Translations under genes and position numbers: made by a program | Notes under the pieces: model-generated | Databases searched by the model: none | Seen by the model: the letters and a program-made list of their open reading frames with translations, nothing else | What the model was told of the DNA's origin: nothing | Assembly (NCBI RefSeq): GCF_009914755.1 | Contig: NC_060931.1 | Length of the DNA: 64,000 nucleotides | Origin: the human T2T-CHM13v2.0 reference genome, Homo sapiens | Reading direction: 5' to 3' (one strand) | Shown: piece by piece, positions 40,563 to 62,729 of the stretch | Numbering within the stretch: position 1 is the first letter of the stretch | How the letters are laid out: each line of letters begins with the position of its first letter

Positions 40563-40907
<345 letters not shown>

Positions 40908-41153: not shown

Positions 41154-41935
<782 letters not shown>

Positions 41936-43359: not shown

Positions 43360-43750
43360 CTGCAAATGAAAGCAAACCACCAAATGCCTTTTCATGTCAT
43401 TATGAATAACAAACACACCAGACTTCTGGACCCCAGCACTGTGCCAAAATGTGTTAGCAGTTCCAAAAGTCTTTTTGTAAAATAAAGGCCAGACCAAGAC
43501 AGAACAGGGGTTAAGGATCTAGTTGCTGCTAACTACCTGGAGAAGAACAGCAGTGGGGACCTTGAAGACACCAGGTCAACTCTGCATAGCATCAGCTCAA
43601 CACACTAAGAAAACCCTCTTTGCCCCAGATAGGTTAGATCAGGAATCAGCAGTGATGACCCAGCCAGGGGACAAGGAGCTTCCAGTTCTCATTTTCACCT
43701 GGACAAATTCCAGGCTGTCTCTCGGCTATGTCCCTGACAACAAAACATGA

Positions 43751-44072
<322 letters not shown>

Positions 44073-44734
44073 AGAAGTAACATTTTTAAAGGCCTTAAGA
44101 TGTTACTCAACAAAACCAGATGACATCTTCCTCTGTAAAATGAGGTCTCCTACCCCAATGTTTCAAGGCAAAGGTGAAGAGTTTTTACCACTAATCATGG
44201 GGAAAAACGAATTCCACAATTCCCACATATTAAAATTTTATGTAGGAAATAAAATATTTCTCATAACCAAAGCCTAGTTCTGTTTGACTGTTTTCATATT
44301 TTAAAAGTTCCATTTAAAAATCTATACTAATAAGTAAGCCTGTCTCTCAGTATTTAGTAAGCGTGTTCTTCTTTTTCCTATTTTTTCTCTCCTCTTCCAT
44401 CAACTTCCCATAATGCAGAATTAGAATACACTTGATATTATCATTGTTTTCCATTTCCTGATTTTAATTTTTTAAAGTAGAGACAGAATCACTCTGTATT
44501 CTTCATTCTTTAAAACAAAAATGTTTAATTTATATTTGATTGTTTTTTTCTAGGAATCAGTGATCTGAAGTTTTTTTAAAGGTGAGTGGAGGCTCCTTTA
44601 TTAGTTTATGAGACCACTGGAACAAATCCACAGCCCCAACCACCTTGCTGAGTCACACCAGCAGCCAACTCCGCATGGCCCACATAGGCTCCAAGTGGGT
44701 TGGACTATGCTATAGATCTGAAAGGGAAAGATAA

Positions 44735-44962
44735 AATGAGGAGGAAGGAAAGGGGGAAGAGTGGCAAGAAGGAAAGATGCCTTATTTAAGGAAGGAAATG
44801 AAGAGGGAGGGAGAAATGAGGAAAGAGGGAGACAGGAGGGAGGAGGGAGACAGGAAGGAGGAGGGGACAGAAAAGGAGGAGGGAGGGAGAGGAGGGAGAA
44901 GGAAAGAAGGAAGGAAGGAAGAAAGGAAGGGAGGAAGGCAGGGAGGGAGGGAGGGAGGCAAG
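44735..44962. repeat. GA-rich polypurine / polypyrimidine tract
   Basis: (GGAA)n/(GGAG)n-like, about 230 nt. Confidence 0.9.
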
Positions 44963-46360
44963 AGCTAAACTCGGGGGAAACAGAGGCAGAATGGGAAGTC
45001 AGAAACAGAAAATCCCTAAATAGGAAAGCAGGAAGAACACATTGTAAGCAGCCCCACACAGCTAAAGACATCATCGGTCTAAATGCCACTCTGCAAAGTC
45101 CCCACAGCCACCACCATGACCTCCACTTTCTCCAGAGAATCTGAGAAAGCTATAAAACTGCAACATTAGGATATGAGGACACCAGTCTTTGGGAAAAGGG
45201 ATCATCAGCAAACAAATATCTTACAGATCTTTTCCTAAATGAATGTTTCCCAGAGCTAAGAGAAGAGAGGTGACAGAGACTTCCAGAGGCAGCACAGGGT
45301 CAGAAAGGCCCTGGGTGGAAGCGCGGCTCATGCCTCCCAGGGCGCGTGCAGGCAAGTGCTTCCTCCGCCATCGCAGACCCCCAGCACCCAGAGTGGCTCC
45401 GCTTCATCATCACAGAGCACACAGGAAGAATCCTTTCAGGGGTACGCGGAGTCACCTCAACCCCCTCACCACACTCTCTCACTAACGGACAACCATGAAA
45501 AGGACAGCAAGGTCCAACCTAAGCAAAGGTAAGAAATGAGCCGATACTTCCTCTGGGTCAAAGGTATCACCAGGAACAAAAATGGCACTTATCTCCGCTA
45601 AAAGACACAATTTAACAGCATGGACACTCACACACAACTCTGGACATTTACAAAAACTGTTCAAGTGTACTTAACAATGGCTGAATTTTACTCCAAAGAG
45701 CTGTTAAAAATACATGGATACCTAATACAGGCACCAAATGTCATTAAGTGTACACCACATATGAAAGTTAAATCCAGCTATGAGGACTCCTAAAGAAGCT
45801 TTCAGTGACTCTTTAAATAAGCTGCTTACAACTGACCACTTTGTAACAATTTTGTACCTACTTTGTAATAATTTTGTAAGAAGGAAGAAAAGTATCATGA
45901 GCATGAGAAACTCTTTTCCCTCCTCCCTGGACTGCTCTAATCTTCAGATTCAAGTTCATGATGTTGCTCCAACCACATTTCCAAGCATAATTACCTGCTC
46001 CTCCCATCACAATGCCTAATCTCCAGCCATGATGACAGTCTCCTCCCCCAGAAGACACTTTCTCTTCATCCCCAGATGACAATTCTACTTTTCCTTTTGT
46101 GGGAATCCCCAATTTCACATTCTTCCAAACCCGTCTCTGATTATCCCAAATAGCCACTCTTGGAGAATTCCACAGTCACTGCTATTACTCTGTGGTTCAG
46201 TACCACCCTCTAGGCCCTGAGCTGCTCACAGGAGGGCCGTGTCTTACCCATCTGTATATCCCTAGAAGCTTCCAGAAGCACCTCACACATACTAGGTGCT
46301 CAATCATTACTTGCCATGTGGAATAACGAATGTTTCCCTTTGGCGTGTGGGGAGCAAAGG

Positions 46361-46440
46361 CTGTCCTGGACTCATTCTCCAAAGCCATTCCCACAGGTAG
46401 GGTGTTGATCACTGACGTGTACCTGCCATCAGGATCCTCG
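46361..46440 (+). repeat. Intronic inverted copy of exon-2 coding sequence (partner 47978-48057)
   Basis: 75/80 nt identical to the reverse complement of 47978-48057; the ORF track shows the shared peptide EDPDGRY(A/T)SVINT(V/L)PVGMALE on opposite strands. Confidence 0.95.
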
Positions 46441-46962
46441 CTCCCACCTGCCCAGAGGGATGTGGCACTGTCACAGTGAGCAGAGGCTCCCAGCAACCCC
46501 GACCACAGAGAGGAAAAGACCCAGCGTGTTCTCCTCCTTCTCCCCCTTCCACATTCTCTGCTCCTCTCCTTCCCGGTCCACTCCACCCCACTCCTCCCTA
46601 CCTCTTCTGCCGTTTTCGTCCCCTTTTTCATTTCTGTCCTCCACTCCTACCAAAATCAAAACAGAGGACAGGCTGCTCGTCACCACCAGGCTGTGGTTCA
46701 GCACACAGTCATGACCCTCGAGACCACATACACCTGTCATGTCTCATGAGGAAAAATGCAGAGACCCTGACCAAGCGGGCCACCGTCGCGGGACATGACC
46801 CTTGAAATCAGTCTACCTCTCAGGCATGCCCTCAGGTGGGCACCAGCTTCACGCGGCCACAGCAGCCATGCAACTGCAAGGGAAGCTGCTGGCCAGTCTG
46901 CTAGCAACCCAGGCTGTGGTGGGGAGGAGACCAAAGGCTGATACTGGATTCAGAGGATATTT

Positions 46963-47086
46963 AGTCACTACTTTTCTTTCCTCGGGACCCAAGGAGCATT
47001 TACAGGGACCTATAAGAGCAAAGAGTCACTTTACTTTTCTTTCCTCGGGACCCAAGGGGCATTTACAGGGACCTATGAGAGCAAAG
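46963..47086. repeat. Tandem duplication, 2 x about 62 bp
   Basis: tacttttctttcctcgggacccaagg.gcatttacagggacctat.agagcaaag occurs twice. Confidence 0.92.
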
Positions 47087-47646
47087 TGCAGTCTCCTTTC
47101 AAGGAAAAGTAAGAAGAGTAAATGAGTAAGAAATTGCAAGGGTTGCCCTTACATAGTTGCCCAACTCATTGCTTGAATTAAACAAAAAAGTATTTTGTTT
47201 AAACTATGTCATCCATGCACCTACTGGGTTATGGTAGGACAAAGATCCTACCAAGAACTTCCAAGGCTTGTTTAGTTCTTGTATTTGTTCTAATATTTAT
47301 TCTCCTTGTGACTGCTGACTAATATGCACCATCCCGTGCATGCCTCTGATGTACTAGGCAAGGGCTGAGCGTTCTGCAGGGACTAACGCATTTACATCTG
47401 AACAACAGCCCAATGAAGCAGGTTTAACTAAGCTCCTTGTTTAATGGGTGAGGCAGCAGACGATTAGAGAGGATAAATAACTGTTCTGAGAACTCGCAGG
47501 AGGTAAGCATAGGAGTACTACCTGGGAGTTAACTGAGCCCAGCGCCTCTGCTCTTAACCATGAAGCTCCAAGCCTCACAGGCACTGCACACAAGCTCCTT
47601 AGAAAGATTGCCCACCCCAGAGAGGCGGCAGGAAGCTGGGCCTTAC

Positions 47647-50337
47647 CAGTTGTGATCAGATAGGCATCGGGGACTGTGATATCACAAACATATGGCGGCT
47701 TGGCAGTAGCCAGTGTTGGTGTGTCGACTGTTGCTTCGAGAGTGAAGGCAGTCACGGGACGCAGGGATGGCAGGGGAGGAGCAGCACTACTCTCTGGGGG
47801 GCTCTGACTTGCGGCGTCACCCATCAGGGTGGAGTCGAGGGGACCACCAGTGGCAGCACCGGTGCTGGTTGTGCTCACTTCCGTGGAGGTGTTCAGTGGC
47901 ACCTCTGTGGGTGTGAGTGATGGGCCCACGACGGTCAGCTCTGTGGGCAGAGGGAAGGGGGTTGCTTCAGAAACAAACGAGGATCCTGATGGCAGGTACG
48001 CGTCAGTGATCAACACCGTACCAGTGGGAATGGCTTTGGAGAAAGAGGCCAGGACAGACACGTGACCGTCTAGAGCACTGATTTGGTCGTCAGGAGGTGT
48101 CAGAGTTGAGAACAAAGAAGACTCAGTTAAAATGGGCGTTGTGTGGACAGTGGTCAATGGTGATGTTGCTTGAATCCCGGCAGTCAAAATGTCAAAAGAC
48201 TCAGAGCCGGGGGGCACCAGTGCAGTGACTGCGGATTCATGGGAAATGAGTGAAGACTCAAGATAGGAGGTAGTTTCAATGAAAGCTGAGGTAAAATGAG
48301 CTTCTGAATCCGTCAGTGAAACCGTAGACGCTTCAACAAACTCGAGAGAATCAGAAGGGAAGCTTGACCATGGTGACACCTCAGAACGGCTAGGTAGCAA
48401 CATGATGGTGTTTAAAGGCAGCTCGGAACTTGGCTGGAGCTGCGAAAACTCAAGATTTGTGGAACTGGGAAGAGACAGCTGAGATGACTGCAGATCACTA
48501 GAGTCAAACAATGTAAATGTCTCAACCAAGGGAGAAAAAGACTGAGATGTGAAGGGGGACAAGTCACTCGGCATCAGAGACAGAGACGCAGGTGCTTCCG
48601 AAGGCGAAGAGATGGAGCCGCTGAGTTCCAGCGGGGGTGTTGAGAAAAAGCTGGATGCAAAATCCAAAGCACCTCTGGGTTTATGCTCAGAAAAACTGGA
48701 ACGTTCTTGGTCAGAGAAAAGTGAAGACTCCACTGAAGGAACCAGACTATAAGGCGTAAAAACACTCGGGTCTCTGACGGCAAGCGACGGTGTGTTTTTG
48801 TTTGCTATGACAGAGAAAGATGAGTCAAGGAGAATGCTGGTGATGACCGAGAAAAATGCAGTGGTCACGCTGGATGGCGTCACTTGGGTTTCAGCAACAG
48901 ACAAGGAGCCAGCAGTAGGATCAAGTGACGCCGGCACAGAGAGGCGGCCGTGGGCAGGGGGAACCTGTGTGGTTGTAACACTACTCATATCCACCTCGGC
49001 AGAAATGCCAACACTCGTCTCTGAGATTTCCATGGATCTAGAAGAAAGTGGGACGATAGGTCTGGAGGGGAAAAGCGTATTAAATACTTGAGGATCTTCC
49101 TCAAATTCAGAGAAGTCTGCTACGACGCTACTCATTAGAGAGATGCTGCTTTCTTCCAGCACGGTCATGCACAGAGTCTCGGCACCATCCCCTGATCCCA
49201 CGTCTTTCTCCATGAGGCTCGTGGCCAGAACTTGCTGAGGTGAAGGCACAGTGCAGGCCGCACACCAAGTGTATGGTCTGAATGAGGACACCGGGCTCAG
49301 GATATGAGTGTTGTCCACAGGACCGGGGAGGGCTGAATTGCTATGCAATTCGGATGTTTTGCTGGAGTCGCTAGGGAGAAAGGGGTTAGATGAAACATCA
49401 GTTGGTGAAGCAGAGGACGCAAATGCAAGAGGAGTTGAAAGCAATGGAGAATGTGTCCTGCTGAATGCAAGGGCTGCGTGCGATGCAGTCACAGTGGGGT
49501 ATGTTCTTGGAGAGATGGTTTCTTCTAGGCTTTGACTCAACACAGTGGTCACATCAGTGTATCTGTCTGCACTTGTGGCCCAAACCTCCTCTGGAGGCTG
49601 TGAGACCTCCCCCAAGGAGGGCAACGGTATAGTAATGCCGTCGCCTAACGGCTGTGGCATTAAAGACCGGGAGCTTAAAAAAAGGGTGGTTTCCACACCC
49701 TCTGTTAGGGAAGCCACAATCTCTGGCAGAGTCCTGCTTGATAAATGACTGTAAGCATCAGTAGGATAAAGCACCAAATTCCTGCCAGGAGTTGGAACGA
49801 TGCCCTCAGAGGTGCGAAAAGCTGACCGAAAGGTGTGGAAATGACTGGCGGACTCAGCATATGCCGCTGGTTGTCGCGTTGTGTTCTGCCAGCCCGATGT
49901 CACTTCTTCATCTTGTAAAGAAACCATGGGTAATGATGGAGTGAGCATAGGTTCTAATGCTTCCCTGGGCAGCCCTGGTGGGCTGACTGTGATATACTGT
50001 ATTGGAGAAACCATCCGTGGAGTGGTCCAGTGAGTATCTGGCAGAAAGTTATCCATCTCATCGTCATTGACGGCCACCTCTTTACTCGTCACTGACACGT
50101 AAGTTGCCACAAAGATGCTGGGATCTGCTGTACTTTTGGTCTGTTTTCCTTGGTTAAAAAAGGCTGTATCAAAAGTAGTGGCAGACGGCGGGGCTGTGAC
50201 ATGGAGAGGACTGCTGTGCTGGGAGCCGGGAGCAGTTTCTGTTAAGGCCACTTGTGCAGCGCTGTGCCCAGTGCTTTTCTTCAGCACGAGCTCCATGGAG
50301 TATAAAGAAAGGTTGTGCTGTTCCGGAGAGAGCTCAT
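47647..50337 (-). CDS. KIAA1549: KIAA1549 exon 2 (2691 nt, phase 1-1), Ser/Thr/Pro-rich mucin-like ectodomain
   Basis: 977-aa ORF 47441..50374; acceptor tttcttgatAG|ATGAGCTC, donor ACAACTG|gtaagg. Confidence 0.96.

Positions 50338-58764: not shown

Positions 58765-59505
<741 letters not shown>

Positions 59506-62335: not shown

Positions 62336-62729
<394 letters not shown>

What the first reader, a model, noticed from the sequence alone, without database searches (positions are those of the whole stretch)
46361..48057. Intronic inverted copy of exon-2 coding sequence: candidate long-range exon-intron RNA duplex (ECS-like) in KIAA1549 pre-mRNA
Seen: 46361-46440 on the + strand reads ctgtcctggActcAttctccaaagccattcccacAggtaGggtgttgatcactgacgTgtacctgccatcaggatcctcg. 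This is 75/80 identical, without gaps, to the mRNA-sense sequence of exon 2 at 47978-48057 (peptide VLASFSKAIPTGTVLITDAYLPSGSS); mismatches are at 46370, 46374, 46395, 46400 and 46418. I do not recognise the sequence as a transposon. Because the copy is inverted, the two arms are complementary in the minus-strand pre-mRNA. They could form an 80-bp helix with a loop of about 1.5 kb that contains the exon-2 donor (47647). Established: exon/downstream-intron duplexes of this geometry are the editing-complementary sequences that direct ADAR recoding (e.g. GRIA2), and they can also modulate splicing. Inference: exonic A's in the AAA(K), ATT/ATC(I), ACT/ACG(T), GAC(D) and TAC(Y) codons could be recoded. 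The 46418 mismatch puts an intronic A opposite a C, a context ADAR favours. The alternative is a neutral templated inverted duplication from DNA repair.
Basis: partly seen in the sequence, partly recalled or inferred. Interest (0 to 1): 0.85.

Follow-up and report, generated by a model that had tools for sequence, protein, structure and literature searches.

The report
Inverted exon-2 fragment copied into intron
An 80-base piece of KIAA1549 coding exon 2 was copied backwards into the next intron in an ancestor of monkeys and apes; it could pair with the exon in the unspliced RNA, but it looks like a decaying repair scar, not a working RNA-editing guide.

Summary
Window 46361-46440 (+) matches the reverse complement of 47978-48057 at 75 of 80 bases, with no gaps and sharp ends. 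These are the only two copies in the genome. Orthologue proteins show the exon is the source. The intron copy carries anthropoid-derived residues, so it arose after the strepsirrhine split. There is no target-site duplication, no poly-A and no second templated piece. This fits a one-step templated inverted insertion, by template switching or break repair.

In silico the two arms pair strongly in the pre-mRNA: -148.8 kcal/mol, and 73 of 80 pairs have probability above 0.9. All 5 differences break pairs. At least 2 are changes in the intron copy.

The largest human coding-editing catalogue I could open lists 1517 sites from GTEx. It has no KIAA1549 site, while positive controls were found.

Verdict: a new example of a known mutation type. 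The duplex is plausible. ADAR recoding or splicing control is unsupported. Primate genomic alignments, REDIportal and RNA-RNA crosslink data could not be reached.

The parts
47978..48057 (-). Exon arm, the source: 80 nt of KIAA1549 exon-2 coding sequence, residues 761-786 of the exon-2 translation P0001
   Evidence: The peptide core is conserved in mammalian orthologues, so the exon is the template.
46361..46440 (-). Intron arm, the derived inverted copy. It reads mRNA-sense on the + strand and is therefore complementary to the exon arm in the minus-strand pre-mRNA. It starts 1206 nt into intron 2.
   Evidence: 75 of 80 bases identical, sharp ends, no TSD or poly-A.
46441..47977 (-). 1537-nt loop between the arms. 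It holds the last 331 nt of exon 2, the donor G|GTAAGG at 47647/47646, and the first 1206 nt of intron 2.
47647..50337 (-). KIAA1549 exon 2 (hub annotation). The reading frame was confirmed by an open 896-codon translation from 50335.
43360..47646 (-). Intron 2, 4287 nt. 3001 nt remain between the intron arm and the acceptor.
   Evidence: hub annotation

Best explanation
This is a fixed relic of one templated inverted insertion. In the anthropoid primate lineage, a polymerase copied 80 bp of exon 2 in reverse-complement orientation into intron 2, 1.5 kb away. The event was either a replication template switch (MMBIR/FoSTeS type, the long-range end of 'template switch mutations') or fill-in synthesis at a double-strand break. 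The copy has since drifted without constraint. As a by-product, the pre-mRNA contains an 80-bp, 94% paired exon-intron duplex. It probably forms transiently before intron 2 is removed and may be an incidental ADAR substrate. It has no demonstrated role in recoding or splicing. Shown: the repeat, its uniqueness, the direction of copying, a lower age bound, the lack of retrotransposition marks, and thermodynamic pairing. Inferred: the mutational mechanism and the neutrality.
For: The pair is unique genome-wide, and both flanks of the copy are single-copy at that tool's sensitivity. The ends are sharp with no gapped extension. There is no target-site duplication longer than a chance 5-mer, no poly-A, and no other templated piece within 46100-46760. 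I aligned 20 of the 58 orthologue hits, chosen for taxonomic spread. The peptide core of the exon arm is present across mammals, so the exon is the source. The copy has Gly in the 'SGSS' motif, seen in 6 of 6 anthropoids and 0 of 14 non-anthropoids. It has Pro in 'LPSG', where all 5 strepsirrhines and the colugo have Ser. So it was made after the strepsirrhine split. The copy's Asp and Arg states (46370, 46400) occur in 0 of 20 orthologues, so these changes happened in the copy and ignore the coding sense. All 5 differences give non-pairs (C.U, U.U, U.U, C.C, C.A) and none gives G.U. The 5 of 80 divergence fits tens of millions of years of near-neutral drift (inference). Template switching that creates new inverted repeats in one step is a described mutation class in human-chimp comparisons (PMC5453318, passages read). 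No KIAA1549 site appears among the 1517 GTEx coding A-to-I sites.
Against: No primate genomic DNA could be reached. Presence or absence in apes and monkeys, the pre-insertion allele, junction microhomology and the substitution rate of the arm against its flanks are all untested. The template-switch events in the passages I read are local clusters with short copied fragments (events under 14 bp were removed there). An 80-bp copy placed 1.5 kb away is at or beyond that scale. Four of the 5 differences are transversions (one-sided P about 0.045 under a 2:1 transition bias, my calculation). That is odd for plain drift and may mean error-prone synthesis at birth, which would make the copy younger than its divergence suggests. 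Absence from one polyA-RNA catalogue with a 1% floor does not exclude editing in nascent RNA, in the intron arm, or in unsampled cell types. The predicted duplex is very stable, so some RNA-level consequence is hard to rule out.
Confidence: 0.7

Rival explanations
1. It is a selected editing-complementary sequence. The intron arm is kept because the duplex recruits ADAR to recode exon-2 codons (K, I, T, D, Y) in brain or retina.
For: The arms are complementary in the pre-mRNA. Duplex energy is -148.8 kcal/mol, and 73 of 80 pairs have p>0.9 in an 1821-nt context. There are 13 exonic A's opposite U, 9 of them nonsynonymous if edited. 3001 nt of intron remain to be transcribed after the arm, which leaves time before splicing. 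Coding-sequence editing clusters driven by inverted similar sequence in the same transcript are known, e.g. CLDN9/CLDN6 and TOR1B/TOR1A (PMC8897444 section 10).
Against: No KIAA1549 site appears in the 1517-site GTEx catalogue, with positive controls present, and its filters would not have hidden exonic A's here. A near-perfect 80-bp helix predicts promiscuous editing, not site-selective editing (established ADAR behaviour, recalled). 0 of 5 differences preserve pairing. No paper in the library links KIAA1549 to editing: 7 and 18 co-mention hits, none on the point judging by title and start of abstract.
Confidence: 0.05
2. It is an incidental ADAR or dsRNA substrate. The duplex forms in a fraction of pre-mRNAs and is edited at a low level or hyper-edited, mostly in unspliced RNA or the excised intron. 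This is not under selection and has no phenotypic effect. It is compatible with the best explanation for the origin.
For: The same thermodynamics apply. The same pre-mRNA already carries many longer inverted pairs within 6 kb of each other (75 pairs, the longest near 300 nt at 79-87%), most at places masked as repeats (and the hub list). The transcript is therefore routinely double-stranded in places.
Against: There is no direct evidence either way. The catalogue I could read covers coding sites at 1% or more in polyA RNA only. A second paper's supplements (PMC11208617) gave 0 hits, but I ran no positive control, so that result is uninformative.
Confidence: 0.35
3. It is a splicing or processing modulator. 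Looping out the exon-2 donor and 1.2 kb of intron changes donor use, splicing kinetics or intron retention.
For: The donor at 47647/47646 lies inside the 1537-nt loop, and the duplex is stable.
Against: The arms do not flank an exon or bring a donor and an acceptor together. The donor is a strong consensus, G|GTAAGG. No alternative isoform at this junction is listed in the hub annotation. Nothing here was tested experimentally.
Confidence: 0.06
4. Same kind of scar, but RNA-templated. A fragment of KIAA1549 transcript (nascent RNA or mRNA) was reverse-transcribed and captured at a break in intron 2, rather than copied from DNA by a switching polymerase.
For: The source is transcribed exon sequence from the same locus, where nascent RNA is abundant. 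There is no TSD or poly-A, which argues against classic L1 target-primed insertion but fits capture at a break. Templated insertions with evidence of RNA intermediates have been described (recalled, not read here).
Against: The 80 nt lie within one exon, so no splice junction marks an RNA origin. The 1.5-kb proximity in cis is what a DNA template switch predicts. Nothing distinguishes the two routes in this sequence.
Confidence: 0.15
5. The two arms are members of a dispersed repeat or transposon family that happens to overlap the exon, or the match is an assembly artefact.
For: None found.
Against: Only two places in the 3.1-Gb assembly match. Identity is 94% with sharp ends. The exon peptide is orthologously conserved in mammals. 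Five fixed differences argue against a recent assembly duplication.
Confidence: 0.02

Closest known systems
Template switch mutations that create new inverted repeats (four-point model; Loytynoja and Goldman 2017, PMC5453318; passages read)
   Same: [quoted passage not shown] Such repeats can look like maintained structures without any selection.
   Different: The described events are short and local: mutation clusters, with copied fragments of 14 bp or more retained after filtering. Here the copy is 80 bp, sits 1537 bp from its template, and the template is coding sequence. The ancestral allele that defines such an event was not available.
MMBIR/FoSTeS templated insertions (PMC2621351 and PMC8421209; search listing and start of abstracts only)
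   Same: A polymerase template switch produces a templated insertion from a nearby locus, possibly inverted. There are no transposon hallmarks.
   Different: Junction microhomology, the defining mark, cannot be scored without the pre-insertion allele. Only one templated segment is present, not a complex multi-segment junction.
Coding-sequence editing clusters whose ECS is an inverted similar sequence in the same transcript (CLDN9/CLDN6, TOR1B/TOR1A, HSPA1L; Gabay et al. 2022, PMC8897444, section 10 read)
   Same: A long, near-perfect dsRNA forms between a coding exon and a reversely oriented similar sequence a few kb away on the same primary transcript.
   Different: Those cases show 10-87 clustered A-to-G sites. 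KIAA1549 shows none in the same catalogue. Their complementary arm is a neighbouring paralogue reached by an extended 3'UTR and so persists in mRNA. Here the arm is intronic and is removed by splicing.
Classical intronic ECS of site-selective recoding (GRIA2 Q/R type; recalled knowledge)
   Same: An exon pairs with the downstream intron, and editing would have to precede splicing.
   Different: Classical ECS duplexes are imperfect, deeply conserved and direct editing of one or a few adenosines. This helix is long, nearly perfect, primate-lineage only, and has no observed editing.

Membership tests
ADAR editing-complementary sequence (functional ECS) | Sequence in the same pre-mRNA that base-pairs with the edited exon region | tested here: met
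   80-nt arms with 75 pairs and -148.8 kcal/mol. 73 of 80 pairs have p>0.9 in an 1821-nt context, and the MFE gain is -84.5 kcal/mol over a reversed-arm control. This is prediction only.
ADAR editing-complementary sequence (functional ECS) | A-to-I editing observed at adenosines of the paired exon | tested here: not met
   There are 0 occurrences of KIAA1549 in the supplements of PMC8897444, whose uncut xlsx holds the 1517 coding sites. GRIA2 (52) and KIAA0895L were found as controls. Limits: polyA GTEx RNA and a floor of 1% editing.
ADAR editing-complementary sequence (functional ECS) | Evolutionary maintenance of pairing (conservation, compensatory or wobble-preserving changes) | tested here: inconclusive
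   0 of 5 differences keep a pair. At least 2 are changes in the copy. With 5 events this is weak: P about 0.13 if one third of substitutions were pair-preserving (my calculation). No primate DNA was available.
Templated inverted insertion / template switch mutation | Reverse-complement copy of a unique nearby template on the same chromosome | tested here: met
   Two places genome-wide, 1537 nt apart.
Templated inverted insertion / template switch mutation | No retrotransposition hallmarks (target-site duplication, poly-A) | tested here: met
   The best flanking direct repeat is a 5-mer lying 15-20 nt from the ends, and there is no A or T run at either end.
Templated inverted insertion / template switch mutation | Ancestral allele lacking the insert; microhomology at the switch points | not testable with these tools
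   No vertebrate genome other than the window's own assembly is held. The template and insertion-site flanks share no bases beyond the 80 nt, but any microhomology would lie inside the 80 nt.
Dispersed repeat / transposable element | Multiple copies across the genome | tested here: not met
   one search found 2 places only, and searches show the flanks are single-copy. The tool warns that its counts are lower bounds and that very common words are skipped.
Known structured RNA family (Rfam 15) | Covariance-model match at or above the gathering score | tested here: not met
   In 45000-49000 there are only two sub-threshold chance matches (E 0.3 and 0.48), and neither is at the arms.

The most novel reading that the evidence does not exclude
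This is an ECS caught at birth. A single template-switch event in an anthropoid ancestor created a ready-made 80-bp exon-intron dsRNA in KIAA1549. It is edited by ADAR in nascent neuronal or retinal RNA, below the 1% floor of bulk polyA catalogues or only in particular cell types. It thereby gives primate-specific recoding of a conserved peptide island (the K, I, T, D and Y codons) or tunes exon-2 splicing kinetics. It would be a dated natural example of how editing guides originate in one mutational step.
Probability: 0.1. Interest if true: 0.6.

Novelty: new member of a known kind. Interest (0 to 1): 0.25.

Why it matters
If the neutral reading holds, this is a clean, datable example of a long-range templated inverted insertion that used a coding exon as its template. 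It is a reminder that striking exon-intron complementarity can arise in one mutational step and persist without function. Apparent 'ECS' structures therefore need editing and conservation evidence before they are called functional. If the duplex is edited after all, it would show how an editing guide can be born instantly by DNA template switching in a gene of clinical interest: KIAA1549 is the BRAF fusion partner in pilocytic astrocytoma, and that link is recalled. The practical value is modest either way.

Tried and rejected
1. Extending the repeat. Gapped local alignment of 300-nt flanks, and blastn with word size 7 of all of intron 2 against exon 2, gave nothing beyond the 80 nt; other hits had E of 1.8 or more.

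2. Transposon or dispersed repeat. Rejected by the whole-genome search, which found 2 places.

3. Complex multi-piece rearrangement. Blastn of 46100-46760 against the whole window found only the self hit and the exon arm.

4. Known RNA family. Rfam found nothing at the arms.

5. Literature link between KIAA1549 and editing. Full-text searches for 'KIAA1549'+'RNA editing' (7 papers) and 'KIAA1549'+'ADAR' (18 papers, 15 listed) gave only unrelated co-mentions, judging by titles and abstract starts. A looser five-term search was badly designed and returned nothing useful. 'editing complementary sequence'+'inverted duplication' found 0 papers.

6. Supplements of PMC11208617 gave 0 hits for KIAA1549. 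I ran no positive control, so I give this no weight.

7. Earlier findings of this scan were not open.

8. The hyper-editing map (doi 10.1038/ncomms5726) could not be consulted because paper reading closed.

9. My impression that the left flank (about 46270-46335) resembles the 3' end of a MIR SINE rests on recall only. The genome search found no other copies at its sensitivity, so it is not used as evidence.

10. Dating from the variable Ala codon (48001-47999) was abandoned. The codon is A in human, T or M in the 6 other anthropoids, and V in 8 of 14 non-anthropoids and in the copy. It sits in CpG context, so the copy's V may be either retention or CpG decay.
Full report
**Observation**

The window is human chr7 (T2T-CHM13), inside KIAA1549 on the minus strand.
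- The repeat finder reports one inverted pair at 46361-46440 and 47978-48057: 80 nt, 94% complementary, 1537 nt between the arms.
- My base-by-base comparison gives 75 of 80 identities without gaps.
- The match ends abruptly on both sides. Smith-Waterman on 300-nt flanks returns the same 80 nt. Blastn with word size 7 of all of intron 2 against exon 2 gives no other hit better than E = 1.8.
- About 1.7e-29 such matches are expected by chance in the window.
- The exon arm is coding, at residues 761-786 of the open 896-codon exon-2 translation P0001.
- The donor G|GTAAGG at 47647/47646 lies in the loop.

**What it is not**

- A search of the window's own 3.1-Gb assembly with a 201-nt query centred on the intron arm finds only the arm itself and the exon arm.
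- The 181 nt to the left and the 260 nt to the right of the arm are single-copy at that tool's sensitivity. The tool warns that its counts are lower bounds. Even so, a 94% identical pair with no third copy is not a transposon family.
- Rfam gives nothing at the arms.
- There is no target-site duplication and no A or T run at the ends. The best flanking direct repeat is a 5-mer lying 15-20 nt away. No other short templated fragment occurs in 46100-46760.
- This is therefore not an L1-type retro-insertion and not a complex multi-segment junction.

**Direction and age**

Exon-2 residues 640-860 recovered 58 KIAA1549 orthologues. I aligned 20 of the 58, chosen for taxonomic spread: 6 anthropoids, 5 strepsirrhines, a colugo and 8 other mammals. 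I added the human exon segment and the in-frame translation of the intron copy, P0002.

- The core of the arm peptide is present across mammals in an otherwise fast-evolving region: identity to human is 92% in gibbon, about 90% in macaques, 83% in New World monkeys and 64-68% in lemurs. The exon is therefore the template and the intron sequence is the copy.
- The copy carries Gly in the 'SGSS' motif. Gly is found in 6 of 6 anthropoids and 0 of 14 non-anthropoids.
- The copy carries Pro in 'LPSG', where all 5 strepsirrhines and the colugo have Ser. So the copy was made after the anthropoid-strepsirrhine split. No tarsier was in the set.
- The copy has none of the New World monkey or gibbon lineage-specific states.
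- Three of the 5 differences change the encoded residue. The copy's Asp (46370) and Arg (46400) occur in 0 of 20 orthologues, so those two changes happened in the copy and ignore coding sense.
- The third is the Ala codon at 48001-47999. It is T or M in the 6 other anthropoids, and V in 8 of 14 non-anthropoids and in the copy. It sits in CpG context, so it cannot be polarised.
- The two synonymous differences cannot be polarised from proteins.
- Five differences in 80 nt fit tens of millions of years of near-neutral drift. This is my inference and the Poisson error is wide.
- Four of the 5 differences are transversions, one-sided P about 0.045 under a 2:1 transition bias. This hints that some errors were made during the copying itself, in which case the copy is younger than its divergence suggests.

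**RNA consequences, in silico**

In the minus-strand pre-mRNA the arms are complementary.
- RNAduplex gives -148.8 kcal/mol with 75 pairs. The 5 mismatches are C.U, U.U, U.U, C.C and C.A, with no G.U.
- In an 1821-nt piece (48120 to 46300), the minimum-energy fold uses all 75 pairs.
- In the partition function, 73 of 80 positions pair with their partner at p>0.9. Replacing the intron arm by its reverse costs 84.5 kcal/mol of MFE.
- The arm starts 1206 nt into the 4287-nt intron, and 3001 nt must still be transcribed before the acceptor exists. A transient duplex before splicing is therefore plausible (inference).
- The exon arm has 13 adenosines, all opposite U. Editing would be nonsynonymous at 9 of them. 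The intron arm has 21 adenosines.
- This duplex is one of many in the transcript. The window holds 75 inverted pairs of 45 nt or more within 6 kb of each other. The longest are near 300 nt at 79-87% and mostly lie at places masked as repeats (and the hub list).
- It is, however, the only one of 671 inverted self-matches that touches a coding exon.

**Is it used?**

- The best accessible test was the GTEx-wide coding-editing catalogue of Gabay et al. 2022 (PMC8897444). It covers 9125 samples and 47 tissues and lists 1517 sites edited at 1% or more in at least one tissue (passages).
- KIAA1549 does not occur in any of its three held supplementary files.
- The xlsx that holds the site tables is not cut. 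It returns GRIA2 (52 occurrences) and KIAA0895L as positive controls.
- The pipeline's BLAT filter discards only mismatches that mirror differences to a highly similar locus. None of the five differences here is an exonic A, so editing at the 13 adenosines was detectable.
- The same paper shows that long dsRNA between a coding exon and an inverted similar sequence gives clusters of 10-87 sites (CLDN9/CLDN6, TOR1B/TOR1A, HSPA1L; section 10). That is what an 80-bp near-perfect helix would predict, and it is not seen for KIAA1549.
- Full-text searches found no paper linking KIAA1549 with editing or ADAR. There were 7 and 18 co-mention hits, none on the point judging by title and abstract start.
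- Limits: polyA RNA and a 1% floor. I had no look at intronic sites, REDIportal or crosslink data. A second paper's supplements gave 0 hits without a positive control. Paper reading closed before I could check the hyper-editing map.

**Mechanism of origin**

- A reverse-complement copy of unique sequence from 1.5 kb away, with clean ends and no retrotransposition marks, is what a polymerase template switch or templated fill-in at a break produces.
- One-step creation of new inverted repeats by template switching is documented from human-chimp comparisons. The authors note that it can create and maintain apparent secondary structures without selection (PMC5453318, passages).
- MMBIR-type templated insertions are the larger-scale relative (PMC2621351 and PMC8421209, listings and abstract starts only).
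- The event here is longer, and its template is farther from the insertion site, than the short local events in the passages I read.
- Its defining evidence, an empty ancestral site and junction microhomology, could not be examined because no other vertebrate genome is held.
- An RNA-templated variant, capture of reverse-transcribed KIAA1549 transcript at a break, cannot be excluded because the 80 nt lie within one exon.

**Verdict**

- The repeat is real, unique and far beyond chance.
- The best reading (0.7) is a fixed, anthropoid-age templated inverted insertion that is drifting neutrally. Its stable predicted exon-intron duplex is a by-product.
- Incidental low-level ADAR editing of the duplex is quite possible (about 0.35) and is compatible with that origin.
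- A selected ECS (about 0.05) or a splicing regulator (about 0.06) is unsupported.
- It is a new member of a known kind and of modest interest.
- Its main lesson is that ECS-like geometry alone does not indicate function.
- The decisive data are primate alignments, nascent-RNA editing calls and RNA-RNA crosslinks. All are public but were out of reach here.

Noticed in passing
window 46969-47023 and 47032-47086: Two direct copies of a 55-nt unit, 96% identical, with 63-nt start-to-start spacing. They lie in intron 2, inside the loop between the two arms. Tandem Repeats Finder did not list them. This looks like a small local tandem duplication, a second sign of replication slippage or template misuse in this intron.
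   Followed up: partly
window 48001-47999 (minus strand), exon 2: The Ala codon opposite the 46418 mismatch is highly variable among orthologues. It is A in human, T in the three macaque/mandrill sequences and Cebus, and M in gibbon and marmoset. It is V in 8 of 14 non-anthropoids. It lies in a double CpG context, which fits recurrent CpG transitions.
   Followed up: partly
window 48046-48023 (minus strand), exon 2: The arm covers a short peptide island (motif SFSKAIPT) that is nearly invariant from primates to horse and armadillo. The surrounding exon-2 region is only 48-68% identical outside anthropoids. The island may be a functional linear motif of KIAA1549. Its conservation predates the intron copy.
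   Followed up: no
window-wide, e.g. 40565-40866 / 41293-41594 and 59195-59490 / 62366-62661: There are 75 inverted pairs of 45 nt or more within 6 kb of each other. The longest is 302 nt at 79%. Most lie at places the hub lists as masked repeats, so they are presumably Alu pairs. The KIAA1549 pre-mRNA therefore has many longer dsRNA-forming regions than the one under study.
   Followed up: no
window about 46270-46335: The sequence just left of the intron arm reminded me of the 3' end of a MIR SINE. This rests on recall only. The genome search found no other copy at its sensitivity. No repeat library was available to test it.
   Followed up: partly
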